From Escherichia coli (GTDB taxonomy: Bacteria > Pseudomonadota > Gammaproteobacteria > Enterobacterales > Enterobacteriaceae): DNA of 64,000 nucleotides. Positions 24,401-30,400 of the stretch are shown one piece after another; position 1 is the stretch's first letter, and the number at the start of each line of letters is the position of its first letter. The stretch is from NCBI RefSeq assembly GCF_030384885.1, contig NZ_CP128613.1. One strand, 5' to 3'. The position numbers were made by a program.

Positions 24401-27400
24401 CGGCTGGGAGTTAGGCTACAGTTCCGATCTTGACCTGATCTTCCTCCATGATTGCCCAATGGATGCGATGACTGACGGCGAGCGGGAAATCGACGGGCGA
24501 CAGTTTTATCTGCGTCTGGCGCAACGCATTATGCATCTGTTCAGTACGCGAACCTCTTCCGGCATTTTGTATGAAGTGGATGCTCGACTGCGTCCGTCCG
24601 GGGCGGCGGGAATGCTGGTCACCTCTGCAGAAGCGTTTTCCGATTATCAGAAAAACGAGGCCTGGACGTGGGAACATCAGGCGCTGGTGCGTGCGCGTGT
24701 AGTGTACGGCGATCCGCAGCTCACCGCGCACTTTGACGCGGTGCGTCGCGAGATTATGACGCTGCCGCGTGAAGGTAAAACTCTGCAAACGGAAGTGCGG
24801 GAAATGCGCGAGAAAATGCGCGCTCATCTCGGCAATAAACATCGCGATCGCTTTGATATCAAAGCCGATGAAGGCGGAATTACCGATATCGAATTTATTA
24901 CCCAATATCTGGTGTTGCGCTACGCTCATGAAAAACCGAAGTTAACGCGCTGGTCAGACAACGTGCGTATTCTGGAGCTGCTGGCGCAAAACGACATTAT
25001 GGAAGAGCAGGAAGCGATGGTGCTGACCCGTGCTTACACTACGCTGCGCGATGAACTTCATCATCTGGCATTACAGGAATTGCCGGGCCATGTGTCGGAG
25101 GATTGCTTCACCGCAGAGCGTGATCTGGTGCGGGCAAGCTGGCAGAAGTGGCTGGTGGAAGAATGAAGTATGGTATTATCGCGCGCAAATTTTGAATCTC
25201 TCAGGAGACAGGAATGAAAGTAACGCTGCCAGAGTTTGAACGTGCAGGAGTGATGGTGGTTGGTGATGTGATGCTGGATCGTTACTGGTACGGTCCCACC
25301 AGCCGTATCTCGCCGGAAGCGCCGGTGCCCGTGGTTAAAGTGAATACCATCGAAGAACGTCCGGGCGGCGCGGCTAACGTGGCGATGAATATCGCTTCTC
25401 TCGGTGCTAATGCACGCCTGGTCGGGTTGACGGGCATTGACGATGCGGCGCGCGCGCTGAGTAAATCTCTGGCCGACGTCAACGTCAAATGCGACTTCGT
25501 TTCTGTACCGACGCATCCGACCATCACCAAATTACGGGTACTTTCCCGCAACCAACAGCTGATCCGTCTGGATTTTGAAGAAGGTTTCGAAGGGGTTGAT
25601 CCGCAGCCGCTGCACGAGCGGATTAATCAGGCGCTGAGTTCGATTGGCGCGCTGGTGCTCTCTGACTACGCGAAAGGTGCGCTGGCAAGCGTGCAGCAGA
25701 TGATCCAACTGGCGCGTAAAGCGGGCGTTCCGGTGCTGATTGATCCAAAAGGCACCGATTTTGAGCGCTACCGCGGCGCTACGCTGTTAACGCCGAATCT
25801 CTCGGAATTTGAAGCTGTTGTCGGTAAATGTAAGACCGAAGAAGAGATTGTTGAGCGCGGAATGAAACTGATTGCCGATTACGAACTCTCGGCTCTGTTG
25901 GTGACCCGTTCCGAACAAGGGATGACCCTGCTGCAACCGGGTAAAGCGCCGCTGCATATGCCAACCCAGGCGCAGGAAGTGTATGACGTTACCGGTGCGG
26001 GCGACACGGTGATTGGTGTGCTGGCGGCAACGCTGGCTGCGGGTAATTCGCTGGAAGAAGCCTGCTTCTTTGCCAATGCGGCGGCAGGCGTGGTGGTCGG
26101 CAAACTGGGGACATCCACGGTTTCGCCGATCGAGCTGGAAAATGCAGTACGTGGACGTGCAGATACCGGCTTTGGTGTGATGACCGAAGAGGAACTGAAG
26201 CTTGCTGTAGCGGCGGCGCGTAAACGCGGTGAAAAAGTGGTGATGACCAACGGCGTCTTCGACATCCTGCACGCCGGGCATGTCTCCTATCTGGCAAACG
26301 CCCGTAAACTGGGTGACCGTTTGATTGTCGCCGTCAACAGCGACGCCTCCACCAAACGGCTGAAAGGGGATTCCCGCCCCGTTAACCCTCTCGAACAGCG
26401 TATGATTGTGCTGGGGGCACTGGAAGCGGTCGACTGGGTGGTGTCGTTTGAAGAAGACACGCCGCAGCGCTTGATTGCCGGGATCTTGCCAGATCTGCTG
26501 GTGAAAGGCGGCGACTATAAACCAGAAGAGATTGCCGGGAGTAAAGAAGTCTGGGCCAACGGTGGCGAAGTGTTGGTGCTCAACTTTGAAGACGGTTGCT
26601 CAACGACCAACATCATCAAGAAGATCCAACAGGATAAAAAAGGCTAACCGGAAAGCGGTTCACAGATCTCGCTTCGAACCAGGCAGGCCTATTGACGCTG
26701 TTGTTTTTTCAACCTAAAGTAAAGGAACAAGGGTAAGGGAGGATTTCTCCCCCCTCTGAATTGGTTGTTAATAAGCCTGGAAACTTACTAGTAACAACAC
26801 AATCAGTATGATGACGAACTTCATCATAACCCTTTCCTTATGCAAGGCCCCTTCCTCGGGAGGGGCTTTCCCGTTTCAGCCCCTTGCTGGCTCCCCGATT
26901 GTTGATGAGCGCCGGACCCCGCGCAATGCTTTCCCTGATGCAGTTTTCTCTTCCCCGAGTCGGCTCGCAAAACGCTGTAACAACCTGATCATTTGCAGTT
27001 TTTTGTGGAACACAGATATAAAAAATCCCCGGTTTTTTGGGCCAGGGATATGTGTTAATGAAACCTTCTTGACGCTGATTTTTTTTCAACCTAAAGTAAA
27101 GGAACAAGGGTAAGGGAGGATTTCTCCCCCCTCTGAATTGGTTGTTAGTAAGTCGGGAAACTTAACAGTAACAACACAATCAGTATGATGACGAACTTCA
27201 TCATAACCCTTTCCTTATGCAAGGCCCCTTCCTCGGGAGGGGCTTTCCCGTTTCAGCCCCTTGCTGATTCCCCGATTGTTGATGAGCGCCAGACCCCGCG
27301 CAATGCTTTCTCTTATGCAGTTTTCTCTTCCCCGAGTTGGCTCGCAAAACGCTGTAACAACCTGATCATTTGTACTTTTTAGCGGAACGCAGATATAAAA

Positions 27401-30400
27401 AATCCCCGGCTTTTTGGGCCAGGGATTATTCATAGAAGAGGGTTTATTCTGTTTTTTCTTCGACGGGAGTTGTTGAGGTTAAGGGGGAAGTCAATGCCGC
27501 CAGTGAGCCGCCTGAAACACCAATTTCATTGAGCAAGGAGTCAATCAGCGGTGCCTGTGTGCGGTAAGAAAGGGCGGCAGACAATGCCTGTTCTGCCAGG
27601 TTTCCGCCACTAACGCTGCCTGATGCCGCATCCCCCGCAGCACCACCTCGGTTTAATCCATCGACCTGAATAATCTTGATGCCGTCAATGGACTTCATCG
27701 GCTCAACGGATTTCTCTATTACTGCAGGTAACGACTGTAATAGCGCCAGTTTGAATTTAAGGCTGGTTTGCTCGTCAGAAAGTACGTTGATAGCGTCGTT
27801 CAGCGCACGTTGCGCTTCTGCTTCCGCCAGGCCTTTTTTGCGTGTTGCTTCGGCTAACTCAACGATCGCCGCCGCCTGCATCTCTGCGGCTTCTTTCTCT
27901 GCTTTCGCCCGCACGGTCAGTTCAACCGCTTTGGTTTCTGCATCCTGCGCGGCAGCGATTAGGGCAACTTGTTTAGCACGATCGGCTTCTGCGGTCTGGC
28001 GAGTGGTTTCTACGTTTTGCTGGGCGCTTACCGCTTCTGCAAGTGCAAGGTTGGCACGCGCTTCCGCTTGTGACTGCTGTTCCGATTTGGCGGCAATAGC
28101 GATCGATTTCGTCTGGTTGGCGATTTCGGTGACCTGCTGCTGTTCAATCTCTTTAATGCGAACTTCACGTTCAGCTTCAACTTTTCTGGAACGGACGGCC
28201 TGTTCGCGGTCGATTTCCGTTTCCTGAATCTGTCGTTCAGCCAGAATTCGCGTCTGCTCTGCTTCCCGACGACGCTCGGCCTCAAAAGCCGCAATTTTCG
28301 CATTCTGCTCAGCGGTACGGGTTTTAACCTGCTGCTCCTGCTCAAGCGTCATAAACGCTTCTTGCTGTTCAATCTCCAGCTTCCGCGAAAGCGCATCACG
28401 GTTTTTCTCACGCACCGCAACTTCTACATCCTGTTCAACTTCGTTACGTTCGCGACGACGGCGCTCCGTCTCCTGCGTCAGCTTGGTTAAACCTTCGGCG
28501 TCAAAGGCGTTGTTAGGATTGAAATGTTCTTTCGACGTCTGGTTAAAGTTGGTAAGTGAAACGCTTTCCAGTTCCAGGCCGTTTTTCGACAGATCTTCAG
28601 CAACGGTATTTTGTACGCCCTGCACGAAGTTCTCGCGGGTATCCTGTAACTCATGCATGGTCATTTGTGCAGCTGTTGCACGGAGGGCATCGACAAATTT
28701 ATCTTCAACCAACATACGTAAGTCTTCAGGCGACAGGGTGCGTTGCCCCAGCGTCTGGGCGGCGGTGGCAATACCTTCCACTGACGGTTTTACCCGCACA
28801 AAGAAAGCGACCACGACATCGACGCGCATACGATCTTTCGTAATCAGGCTATCAATGGTTGAGCGGCTGACTTCCAGTTTCAGGGTATTCATATTGATGG
28901 GAATTATTTCATGGAAGATTGGCATCACGATTGCGCCACCGCTCATCACCACTTTTTGACCACCTAAACCAGTACGAACAAATGCTTGCTCTGCCGAAGC
29001 GCGACGATAGAGCCTGGCGAAAATAATCCCAATAATAAACAGAACGCATACGGCAATAATTGCGGTAAACATCCAGGAGGGCATAGAATTAACAATATCA
29101 TCCATTATTAAATTTCCTTTTGATTAATAAATTACAGTATTTGGGGCCAGGGATTTTTTTCCGCCAAATATCGCGTTGCAGAAAGTCGGCAAATAATTAA
29201 TACTTTGTCTCCTTTAGTGAAAGTTTTTTCTTCTTCAGGTTCCAGTAGTAAATAATGTATTTGGCCAAATTGATCGGTGAGTTTTCCTTCACAGGGGTTA
29301 CCTGAAGTGGCCTGATGTCCGGTAATTAATGCCATGCAGCCAATATAATCGTCTTCTGTAATAGCAGTGCTATGATCTCGTGGTAACCAGGGCGCAATTA
29401 CTTTACCGGTATAATGCACTGCAATAATCGTTAGCAGTAAACTGACAGGAACCACAAACAGATTTGTGAGTGGTGATTGCCAGACCATGATGCAGACCTG
29501 CTGTAGCAGGATGCCAATAAGGCCAAAAAAACCAGCATGTAAGCAGAGAACGACGAGAGCTGGCAATCTTCCAAAATTGAGATAATGAAGTGCCTGGCTA
29601 ATATGGCCTGTGGTTATGGAATCATAATGGTCAAGATGTGCATCAAGAGCACCGGAAAGCATGTGACCGCAGATAAGTGCAAAAATTTCTAAAAGGCCGA
29701 TCAAAAGTACAAAAGAAATAGCGAAAAGATAAGGGGTGTTATAGTCAGCGAATAAAATCATATGTCACTCCAATGTCCATTTAGTGACGCAATATTTATT
29801 TTGCGATAATTTCCTTGCTTACATTTATCTTTGTTAATAATAACACATGTTAGAGAAGTTCTGGAAGAGAAAGTCTTTTAATATGGTTTTTTATTTTTCA
29901 CTAAAAAGTGTGATCGGGGACAATATATTTACGCACGTTATGTTTAAAGGCACTACACTGATTGGGGAATACTGAAATCAGAAAAAGCATATGGCCTTAA
30001 AAGGTATGCGATAACCGGAGGATGTGCTTATGGATCATAGTCTTAATTCTTTAAATAATTTCGATTTCCTGGCGCGTAGTTTTGCCAGAATGCACGCAGA
30101 AGGTCGCCCGGTCGATATTCTGGCCGTTACTGGTAACATGGATGAAGAACATAGAACCTGGTTTTGCGCACGTTATGCCTGGTATTGCCAACAAATGATG
30201 CAAACCAGAGAACTTGAATTAGAACACTGATATTACGGGCCGTCTGGCCCGTTTTTGTGTTGCTTTATTCTGCTTTATCAACCGGCGGGATAGCTGGAGG
30301 AGATTGAAGTTCTGCTACCGGATTATTGCGCGCTTCCAGTTCGCTGATGCGTTGTTCCAGTAACGCCAGTTTTTCACGAGTCCGTAACAGGACTTGCGTC

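What the first reader, a model, noticed from the sequence alone, without database searches (positions are those of the whole stretch)
27018..27426. The yqiK terminator hairpin is duplicated inside the Sib repeat
The minus-strand terminator after yqiK (27394-27426) has a near-identical copy at 27018-27049 at the boundary of Sib repeat copy 1. The repeat unit therefore seems to have been generated by duplicating a segment that included the yqiK terminator, and each ibs transcript is bracketed by this terminator.
Basis: seen in the sequence. Interest (0 to 1): 0.2.

Follow-up and report, generated by a model that had tools for sequence, protein, structure and literature searches.

The report
Duplicated yqiK terminator in sibD/sibE repeat
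The transcription terminator of the yqiK gene was copied along with a small toxin/antitoxin-RNA module (ibs/Sib) when that module was tandemly duplicated in an ancestor of Escherichia; this is a real but ordinary by-product of a well-known duplication.

Summary
A 9-10 bp GC-rich stem-loop followed by a U-run on the minus strand lies 16 nt after the yqiK stop codon (27401-27427). It has a second copy at 27025-27049 with one mismatch. Both are the last 35 nt of a 377-bp tandem repeat (26692-27050 and 27069-27427, about 94-96% identical) that carries the two Sib/ibs modules. K-12 has the same arrangement (sibE/ibsE, sibD/ibsD).

Six other enterobacterial genomes (Citrobacter, Kluyvera, Phytobacter and an unnamed Enterobacteriaceae isolate) have one Sib unit and one copy of this hairpin next to yqiK. 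Four loci that lack yqiK keep Sib but not the hairpin; a fifth, S. arizonae, keeps only a decayed remnant. The sibA/B and sibC loci lack it.

So the hairpin is the old yqiK terminator, and a duplication of nearly the whole hldE-yqiK spacer in an Escherichia ancestor copied it. The array is polymorphic: about 72% of 5,426 complete E. coli genomes have the two-unit junction and most others have one unit.

"Each ibs transcript is bracketed" is only partly right. Only the yqiK-proximal ibs lies between two copies. In K-12 Term-seq, ibsD mRNA ends at its own hairpin 65 nt before the internal copy.

The internal copy probably acts as a backstop terminator and insulator; this is inferred, not shown. 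Interest is low.

The parts
25214..26647 (+). hldE coding sequence, the left boundary of the intergenic region
   Evidence: ORF; 100% tblastn match to K-12 HldE and K-12 annotation
26646..26660 (-). Small terminator-like hairpin overlapping the hldE stop codon. It is unrelated in sequence to the yqiK hairpin and is the only hairpin downstream of the hldE-proximal ibs.
   Evidence: Terminator scan: 5 pairs, tail AGCCTTTTTT; weak fold of -5.2 kcal/mol
26692..27050 (.). Tandem repeat copy 1, in the position that sibE/ibsE occupies in K-12: Sib promoter, Sib RNA, antisense ibs gene, ibs promoter region and the internal copy of the yqiK terminator
   Evidence: the repeat finder and alignment; 94.4% identical to copy 2 over 359 nt
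26727..26871 (+). Sib antitoxin RNA, unit 1. Ends were transferred from the K-12 sibE annotation. The promoter is TTGACG 26692-26697 and TAAAGT 26715-26720.
   Evidence: Rfam RF00113, 143 bits; promoter scan; K-12 annotation; coordinates mapped by hand
26768..26827 (-). ibs toxin ORF, unit 1 (MMKFVIILIVLLLVSFQAY)
   Evidence: ORF list; homologous to the annotated K-12 ibs genes
27014..27049 (-). Internal copy of the yqiK terminator: stem-loop 27025-27049, U-tract encoded by 27014-27024. It has a GGC to GGT change at the top of the stem.
   Evidence: Pattern search; folds; the 101-nt window stretch that carries the GGT allele is matched at >=99% identity by only 12 E. coli records
27051..27068 (.). 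Junction between the two units (ATGTGTTAATGAAACCTTC region). It is probably diverged flank sequence: the left part from the yqiK side of the hairpin, the right part from upstream of the Sib -35.
   Evidence: Alignment; variant junction GTGGGATAGAGAAACCTTC in strain Res13-Lact-ER01-35 resembles the terminal flanks. Tentative.
27069..27427 (.). Tandem repeat copy 2, in the position that sibD/ibsD occupies in K-12, ending with the yqiK terminator itself
27104..27248 (+). Sib antitoxin RNA, unit 2. The promoter is TTGACG 27069-27074 and TAAAGT 27092-27097.
   Evidence: Rfam RF00113, 142.7 bits; promoter scan
27145..27204 (-). ibs toxin ORF, unit 2 (MMKFVIILIVLLLLSFPTY). The variable Sib/ibs stretch matches K-12 ibsE, not ibsD.
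   Evidence: ORF list; alignment
27391..27427 (-). yqiK (yqiJK) intrinsic terminator: stem-loop 27401-27427, U-tract encoded by 27391-27400
   Evidence: Terminator scan; fold of -20.6 kcal/mol, z = -4.65; conserved next to yqiK in Citrobacter, Kluyvera, Phytobacter and an unnamed Enterobacteriaceae isolate
27444..29105 (-). yqiK (flotillin family) coding sequence; stop codon at 27444-27446
   Evidence: ORF; K-12 annotation

Best explanation
The hairpin at 27401-27427 is the Rho-independent terminator of yqiK (the yqiJ-yqiK unit) on the minus strand. It is an old feature that accompanies yqiK in several enterobacterial genera.

In an ancestor of E. coli, E. albertii and Escherichia sp. E1V33, nearly the whole hldE-yqiK spacer was tandemly duplicated. 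The duplicated segment was 377 bp: Sib promoter, Sib/ibs module, ibs promoter region, the yqiK terminator and probably about 10 nt beyond it. This produced the sibE/ibsE and sibD/ibsD pair with a second terminator copy between them.

The array has since gained and lost units by unequal recombination, giving one to four hairpin copies among E. coli genomes.

Function of the internal copy is inferred, not shown. It keeps the stem and U-tract of a canonical intrinsic terminator on the ibs strand. It most likely stops transcripts that read through the weak ibs terminator of the upstream unit. The downstream ibs toxin gene would then keep the same insulated promoter context that the single ancestral ibs had behind yqiK.
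For: Duplication, and the hairpin as the end of the repeat:
- Ungapped homology runs from 26692-27050 to 27069-27427.
- The pattern is unique to these two sites in the window.
- K-12 has the same layout.

The hairpin belongs to yqiK, not to Sib:
- Six outgroup genomes that have yqiK show hldE, one Sib unit, one hairpin, then yqiK. They are Citrobacter sp. FP75, C. youngae, Kluyvera sichuanensis, two Phytobacter species and an unnamed Enterobacteriaceae isolate.
- Four loci without yqiK keep Sib and lack the hairpin. Salmonella arizonae has only a decayed remnant.
- The sibA/B and sibC loci lack it. sibC has the unrelated serA terminator in the equivalent position.
- In E. coli the hairpin with its 24-nt flank occurs in 5,408 of 5,426 genomes, 1-4 places per genome with a median of 2, so it is not dispersed.

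Age of the duplication:
- The same junction is present in E. coli (3,926 of 5,426 genomes), E. albertii and Escherichia sp. E1V33.
- A single-unit E. coli locus (strain MS 21-1) looks like a hybrid of the K-12 E and D units. That fits secondary loss.

Terminator quality:
- The stem-loop folds at -15.1 kcal/mol in most copies, 93% of alignment cells are paired, and the 3' arm and U-tract are nearly invariant.

Constraint on the internal copy:
- 4 of 35 columns vary among five internal copies, against 17 of 55 in the spacer just upstream.
- The two changes in the E1V33 internal copy both lie in the loop.
Against: - No experimental 3' end is reported at either yqiK-type hairpin in the curated K-12 Term-seq lists for three growth conditions. 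The ibsD mRNA ends at its own hairpin, 65 nt upstream of the internal copy (PMC7815308 supplements). This may only mean that yqiK is weakly expressed and read-through is rare.
- The internal copy in this window has lost a G-C pair (-11.3 versus -15.1 kcal/mol) and fails the simple terminator scan.
- About a quarter of E. coli genomes manage with a single unit, so the internal copy is dispensable.
- The stem shows conservation only, with no compensatory changes.
- The constraint estimate rests on five sequences.
- The reading of the 18-nt junction as diverged flank is based on short, weak similarities.
Confidence: 0.85

Rival explanations
1. The internal copy is a functionless passenger. It was copied with the repeat and looks conserved only because the duplication is homogenised by recombination between the units, not because termination there matters.
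For: - No Term-seq 3' end at the internal copy in K-12, and ibsD ends at its own hairpin.
- The window's internal copy carries a stem-weakening change.
- Single-unit genomes are common.
- Unit relationships are reticulate, which implies frequent recombination.
- The stem shows no covariation.
Against: - The stem and U-tract are intact in K-12, E. albertii and E1V33.
- Fewer columns vary in the hairpin than in the adjacent spacer (0.11 versus 0.31).
- The junction region is about 98% identical across roughly 3,900 genomes, while the whole spacer is about 92% identical to the window.
Confidence: 0.35
2. The hairpin is an intrinsic part of the Sib/ibs (QUAD) module, for example the true ibs terminator or a Sib-strand element, and only happens to lie next to yqiK.
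For: It lies at the end of each repeat unit. A Rho-termination peak on the Sib strand lies 5 nt past the terminal hairpin in K-12 (3194538, minus strand).
Against: - It is absent from sibA, sibB and sibC.
- It is absent from hldE-linked Sib units in four genomes without yqiK.
- The ibsD 3' end maps 65 nt before it.
- On the Sib strand the stem has a C.A mismatch and no U-tract, and it is not called a terminator.
Confidence: 0.03
3. The two hairpins are similar by chance, or are two insertions of a small dispersed palindromic element (REP-like), not products of one duplication.
For: Short GC-rich stems with U-tracts recur in many terminators.
Against: - 27 of 28 bases are identical, with 0 matches expected by chance.
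- About 325 nt of upstream homology is continuous with the hairpin.
- The element is confined to this locus in E. coli, with 1-4 copies per genome.
- There is no Rfam hit other than SIB_RNA.
Confidence: 0.01

Closest known systems
sibD/ibsD-sibE/ibsE tandem type I toxin-antitoxin repeat of E. coli K-12 (formerly QUAD1 repeats; Rfam RF00113 SIB_RNA)
   Same: Same locus and gene order (hldE, two Sib/ibs units, yqiK). K-12 has the same 375-377-bp period and the same duplicated hairpin. Tandem duplication of ibs-sib in one intergenic region is stated in PMC2887945.
   Different: The window strain matches E. coli 2013C-4282 at 100%. It carries different unit types in the two positions: a ...SFQAY ibs next to hldE and a K-12-IbsE-like unit next to yqiK. 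Its internal hairpin has a GGC to GGT change. I found no paper in the searchable library that states the repeat includes the yqiK terminator. The key paper, Fozo et al. 2008, could not be read.
Canonical Rho-independent (intrinsic) terminator
   Same: A GC-rich stem of 9-10 bp, a 7-nt loop and a run of 6 U followed by AUAU, 16 nt after a stop codon.
   Different: Termination at this site is predicted, not measured. No 3' end appears in the curated K-12 Term-seq lists.
serA terminator upstream of ibsC at the sibC locus
   Same: Same architecture: a gene on the ibs strand, its intrinsic terminator, then the ibs promoter region.
   Different: Unrelated sequence. In K-12 there is a single unit with no internal copy. 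In E. coli SCPM-O-B-8794 a tandem SibC-type pair has a junction that carries only a degenerate piece of the serA terminator.

Membership tests
Sib/Ibs type I toxin-antitoxin module (RF00113) | Sib RNA sequence and structure match the family covariance model above the gathering score | tested here: met
   143.0 and 142.7 bits against a gathering score of 56, at 26692-26842 and 27069-27219
Sib/Ibs type I toxin-antitoxin module (RF00113) | An 18-19-aa hydrophobic Ibs ORF encoded fully antisense to Sib | tested here: met
   MMKFVIILIVLLLVSFQAY (26768-26827, minus strand) and MMKFVIILIVLLLLSFPTY (27145-27204, minus strand), both inside the Sib regions
Sib/Ibs type I toxin-antitoxin module (RF00113) | Toxicity of Ibs and its repression by the cognate Sib | not testable with these tools
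   Shown for the K-12 homologues in the literature (PMC2943612), not for these alleles
Intrinsic (Rho-independent) terminator | A stable GC-rich stem-loop followed directly by a U-tract on the transcribed strand, downstream of a gene | tested here: met
   Terminal copy: 10 pairs (6 G-C), loop of 7, tail TTTTATATCT, -20.6 kcal/mol, z = -4.65. Internal copy: 8-pair stem, 9-nt loop, same U-tract, -11.3 kcal/mol for the stem-loop; it is not called by the scan.
Intrinsic (Rho-independent) terminator | Transcript 3' ends map to the U-tract in vivo or in vitro | tested here: not met
   No plus-strand 3' end at 31945xx or 31949xx in the Adams et al. 2021 K-12 lists. This is absence from curated lists for three conditions, not proof that there is no termination. 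Other Term-seq supplements were not held.
Tandem segmental duplication | Head-to-tail copies with continuous homology, a constant period, and a single-copy state in outgroups | tested here: met
   Period of 377 nt with no indels in the window. One unit in Citrobacter, Kluyvera, Phytobacter and an unnamed Enterobacteriaceae isolate; two in E. coli, E. albertii and Escherichia sp. E1V33.
REP/dispersed palindromic element (considered and rejected) | Many copies dispersed around the genome | tested here: not met
   1-4 places per E. coli genome with a median of 2; every listed row whose position can be compared lies at the hldE-yqiK locus

The most novel reading that the evidence does not exclude
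The internal terminator copy is kept by selection as an insulator. It would let each toxin gene in a tandem type I toxin-antitoxin array be transcribed independently, so that such arrays can expand only in units that carry their own upstream terminator. It might also act on the Sib strand as a 3'-end-protecting hairpin for Rho-terminated Sib read-through transcripts.
Probability: 0.3. Interest if true: 0.3.

Novelty: already known. Interest (0 to 1): 0.12.

Why it matters
It matters little beyond careful annotation.
- It fixes the true extent of the sibD/sibE repeat: 377 bp, nearly the whole hldE-yqiK spacer, not only the Sib RNA.
- It identifies the hairpin as an old yqiK terminator, not a Sib element.
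- It shows the array is a recombination-prone, copy-number-variable locus in E. coli.

If the internal copy does terminate, it would be a small example of a duplicated toxin gene inheriting the insulation of its parent. It also warns against the spurious "hypothetical protein" ORFs that some annotations place across the repeat.

Tried and rejected
- Chance similarity or a dispersed palindrome: rejected.
- Hairpin as part of the Sib module: rejected by comparison with sibA/B and sibC and with loci that lack yqiK.
- Bidirectional terminator: on the plus strand the stem has a C.A mismatch and no U-tract, and it is not called by the scan. Not supported.
- Experimental 3' ends:
  - The Adams et al. 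2021 supplements gave the ibsD end and a Rho region, but nothing at the hairpins.
  - The supplements of Dar & Sorek 2018, Choe 2022 and Grünberger 2022 are not held.
  - Fozo et al. 2008 is not held.
- Literature searches for the yqiK terminator or the repeat boundaries found nothing specific.
- A synthetic three-unit query (window unit 1 + unit 2 + K-12 sibD unit) retrieved only two-unit loci of about 906 bp. I did not locate the few genomes with 3-4 hairpin copies.
- Covariation test on the stem: conservation only, no compensatory pairs.
- The 18-nt junction as unrelated filler: I now think it is diverged flank, based on the variant junction. The evidence is weak.
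Full report
**What is there.**
- The window region is glnE, then hldE (25214-26647, plus strand), a 796-bp spacer, then yqiK (27444-29105, minus strand) and yqiJ.
- The stretch 26600-27500 is 100% identical to E. coli strain 2013C-4282 and about 90-93% identical to most other E. coli.
- Rfam finds two SIB_RNA matches on the plus strand, at 26692-26842 and 27069-27219 (143 bits each, gathering score 56).
- Each has an antisense 19-aa Ibs ORF: 26768-27827 is not the range; the ORFs are 26768-26827 and 27145-27204.
- In K-12 the same spacer holds sibE/ibsE next to hldE and sibD/ibsD next to yqiK.

**The observation.**
- The pattern AAAATCCCCGGYTTTTTGGGCCAGGGAT occurs only at 27022-27049 and 27399-27426 in the 64 kb, with none expected by chance.
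- On the minus strand the yqiK-proximal copy is a textbook intrinsic terminator.
  - It has 10 pairs, a loop of 7 and the tail UUUUAUAUCU.
  - The 51-nt fold gives -20.6 kcal/mol, z = -4.65.
  - It begins 16 nt after the yqiK stop codon.
- The internal copy differs by one base (GGC to GGT), which removes the top G-C pair.
  - The stem-loop energy is -11.3 versus -15.1 kcal/mol.
  - The simple scan no longer calls it a terminator, but the 8-bp stem and the U-tract remain.
- The two hairpins are not isolated look-alikes. The pairwise alignment is ungapped from the Sib -35 hexamer to the hairpin base, 26692-27050 against 27069-27427.
  - The period is 377 nt.
  - Identity is 96% over the first 300 nt and 94.4% over 359 nt.
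  - Only 27051-27068 looks unique.

**Whose hairpin is it?** K-12 has the same two copies, identical to each other, at 3194543-3194572 and 3194920-3194949. The other K-12 Sib loci do not carry it.
- The sibA/B junction has no terminator.
- sibC is preceded on the ibs strand by the unrelated serA terminator.

A scan of one genome per species for the conserved Sib/ibs start region returned 68 loci. I sorted them by flanking genes and read and aligned the hldE-linked ones.
- Six genomes that have yqiK show hldE, one Sib unit, one hairpin, then yqiK.
  - They are Citrobacter sp. FP75, C. youngae, Kluyvera sichuanensis, Phytobacter diazotrophicus, P. ursingii and an unnamed Enterobacteriaceae isolate.
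  - Their hairpin is AAAAAATCCCCGGCTTTATGGGCCAGGGA or a near variant.
- Four loci that lack yqiJK keep the Sib unit but have no hairpin. They are two Citrobacter sp., C. amalonaticus and S. diarizonae.
- S. arizonae has only a decayed remnant.
- Across 15 copies, 93% of stem cells are paired, and the 3' arm and U-tract are almost invariant. There are no compensatory changes.

The hairpin is therefore an old yqiK terminator, not a Sib element.

**The duplication.**
- Two-unit arrays with an internal hairpin occur in E. coli, E. albertii and Escherichia sp. E1V33. They share nearly the same junction, ATGTGTTA(AT/GC)GAAACCTTC. One event in an Escherichia ancestor explains this.
- In strain Res13-Lact-ER01-35 the junction reads GTGGGATAGAGAAACCTTC.
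  - Its left half resembles the sequence between the hairpin and yqiK (…CATAGAAGAGGG in E. coli, GGGGGA… in Citrobacter).
  - Its right half resembles the bases upstream of the first Sib -35 (…GACCTA).
- I therefore read the whole 377 bp as the duplicated unit, which is nearly the entire spacer. The junction would be its most diverged part. This point is tentative.

**Population picture.**
- The hairpin with its 24-nt flank is found in 5,408 of 5,426 complete E. coli genomes. There are 9,428 places, a median of 2 and a maximum of 4 per genome.
- The hairpin-junction-promoter stretch is found in 3,926 genomes, or 72%.
- Most of the rest have a single unit.
- The single unit of strain MS 21-1 has a K-12-E-like Sib/ibs core and a D-like promoter-distal half. 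That is what unequal recombination between two units would leave.
- Unit relationships are reticulate. The window's yqiK-proximal unit is closest to the hldE-proximal unit of E. albertii (96.1%). The order of ibs allele types also differs between the window, K-12 and Res13.
- A synthetic three-unit query found only two-unit loci.

**How it probably works.**
- Shown: the sequence, the predicted structure, the distribution and the duplication.
- Inferred: function.

On the ibs/yqiK strand, the terminal copy separates yqiJK transcription from the ibs promoter region. By comparison with the K-12 promoter and the mapping by Han et al. (PMC2943612), I place that promoter as follows:
- -35 TTGCGC at 27298-27303
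- -10 AACAAT at 27275-27280

The internal copy gives the second ibs the same upstream context. K-12 Term-seq places the ibsD 3' end at 3194855. That is the base of its own hairpin and 65 nt before the internal copy. The lists show no 3' end at either yqiK-type hairpin (Adams et al. 2021, PMC7815308). At most, then, the internal copy is a backstop for read-through, not the normal ibs end.

Weak support for constraint: among five internal copies, 4 of 35 hairpin columns vary against 17 of 55 in the spacer just upstream. The passenger model remains a live alternative.

- The duplication claim is supported.
- The bracketing claim holds only for the yqiK-proximal ibs. The hldE-proximal ibs has a copy upstream and only a different, weak hairpin (26646-26660) downstream.

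**Comparison and novelty.** This is the known sibD/sibE tandem repeat, and tandem duplication of ibs-sib is already published (PMC2887945). I found no explicit statement that the repeat includes the yqiK terminator, but Fozo et al. 2008 was not available. The detail is a natural consequence of duplicating almost the whole spacer. Interest is low.

Noticed in passing
window 26750-26800 and 27127-27177; L001, L007, L042, L073: The order of ibs/Sib allele types in the two-unit array differs between strains. The window has [..SFQAY type, K-12-IbsE type]. K-12 and E. albertii have [IbsE type, IbsD type]. Res13-Lact-ER01-35 has [IbsD type, another type]. The identity matrix is reticulate. This suggests repeated unequal crossing-over, or sliding along a once-longer array.
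   Followed up: partly
E. coli complete genomes: The unit is copy-number polymorphic. About 72% of genomes have the two-unit junction, most others have one unit, and a few have up to 4 hairpin copies. I did not locate the arrays with 3-4 units.
   Followed up: partly
L009 (Citrobacter sp. FP75) and L029 (Salmonella enterica subsp. arizonae), Sib 3' end: A 33-nt deletion removes the Sib terminator hairpin exactly between two CCCCTT direct repeats in both genomes, while the ibs ORF looks intact. Sib would then lack its own terminator.
   Followed up: no
L029, about 100 nt after the Sib unit: S. arizonae has no yqiK but keeps a decayed remnant of the hairpin (GGGAATTCCCGGCCTTATGACCAGAGAT). This suggests that yqiJK was lost in Salmonella, not gained elsewhere.
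   Followed up: no
L045 (Escherichia whittamii), just after the Sib terminator: The sequence switches to CTGTCTCTTATACACA…, a Nextera transposase mosaic end. This is probably an adapter-derived assembly artefact in the public contig.
   Followed up: no
L024:1-700 (E. coli SCPM-O-B-8794, next to serA): A tandem pair of SibC-type units with 391-nt spacing; K-12 has one unit here. The junction carries a copy of the fau-side hairpin (GGGCGA..CCCGCATCGCCC) and only a degenerate piece of the serA terminator.
   Followed up: partly
window 26964-26971 and 27341-27348 (plus strand CTCGCAAA): The motif CTCGCAAA / CACGCAAAA lies about 40 nt upstream of the ibs -35. It is conserved in all five K-12 Sib units and in the outgroup genera. 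Its function is unknown; it may be a regulator site for ibs.
   Followed up: no
K-12 3194538, minus strand (about window 27432, plus strand): Adams et al. 2021 list a strong Rho-termination region on the Sib strand that peaks 5 nt past the terminal hairpin. The Rho score is 24.5; downstream reads rise from 53 to 1439 with bicyclomycin. Sib read-through therefore enters antisense yqiK and is stopped by Rho.
   Followed up: partly
window 26838-27107 (minus strand, 89 aa) and 27215-27433 (minus strand, 72 aa): Long ORFs run across the repeat and the hairpins. NCBI's annotation pipeline (PGAP) calls a similar 'hypothetical protein' in some E. coli genomes, for example WP_087650774.1 in L073. They are probably spurious.
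   Followed up: no
L002:1722-1770 (K-12, upstream of sibA): The sequence …TTTGCTATTCGCCTCGCAAGAA… upstream of the sibA promoter resembles the CTCGCAAAGAA end of a Sib unit. It may be a remnant of a third unit at the sibA/B locus.
   Followed up: no
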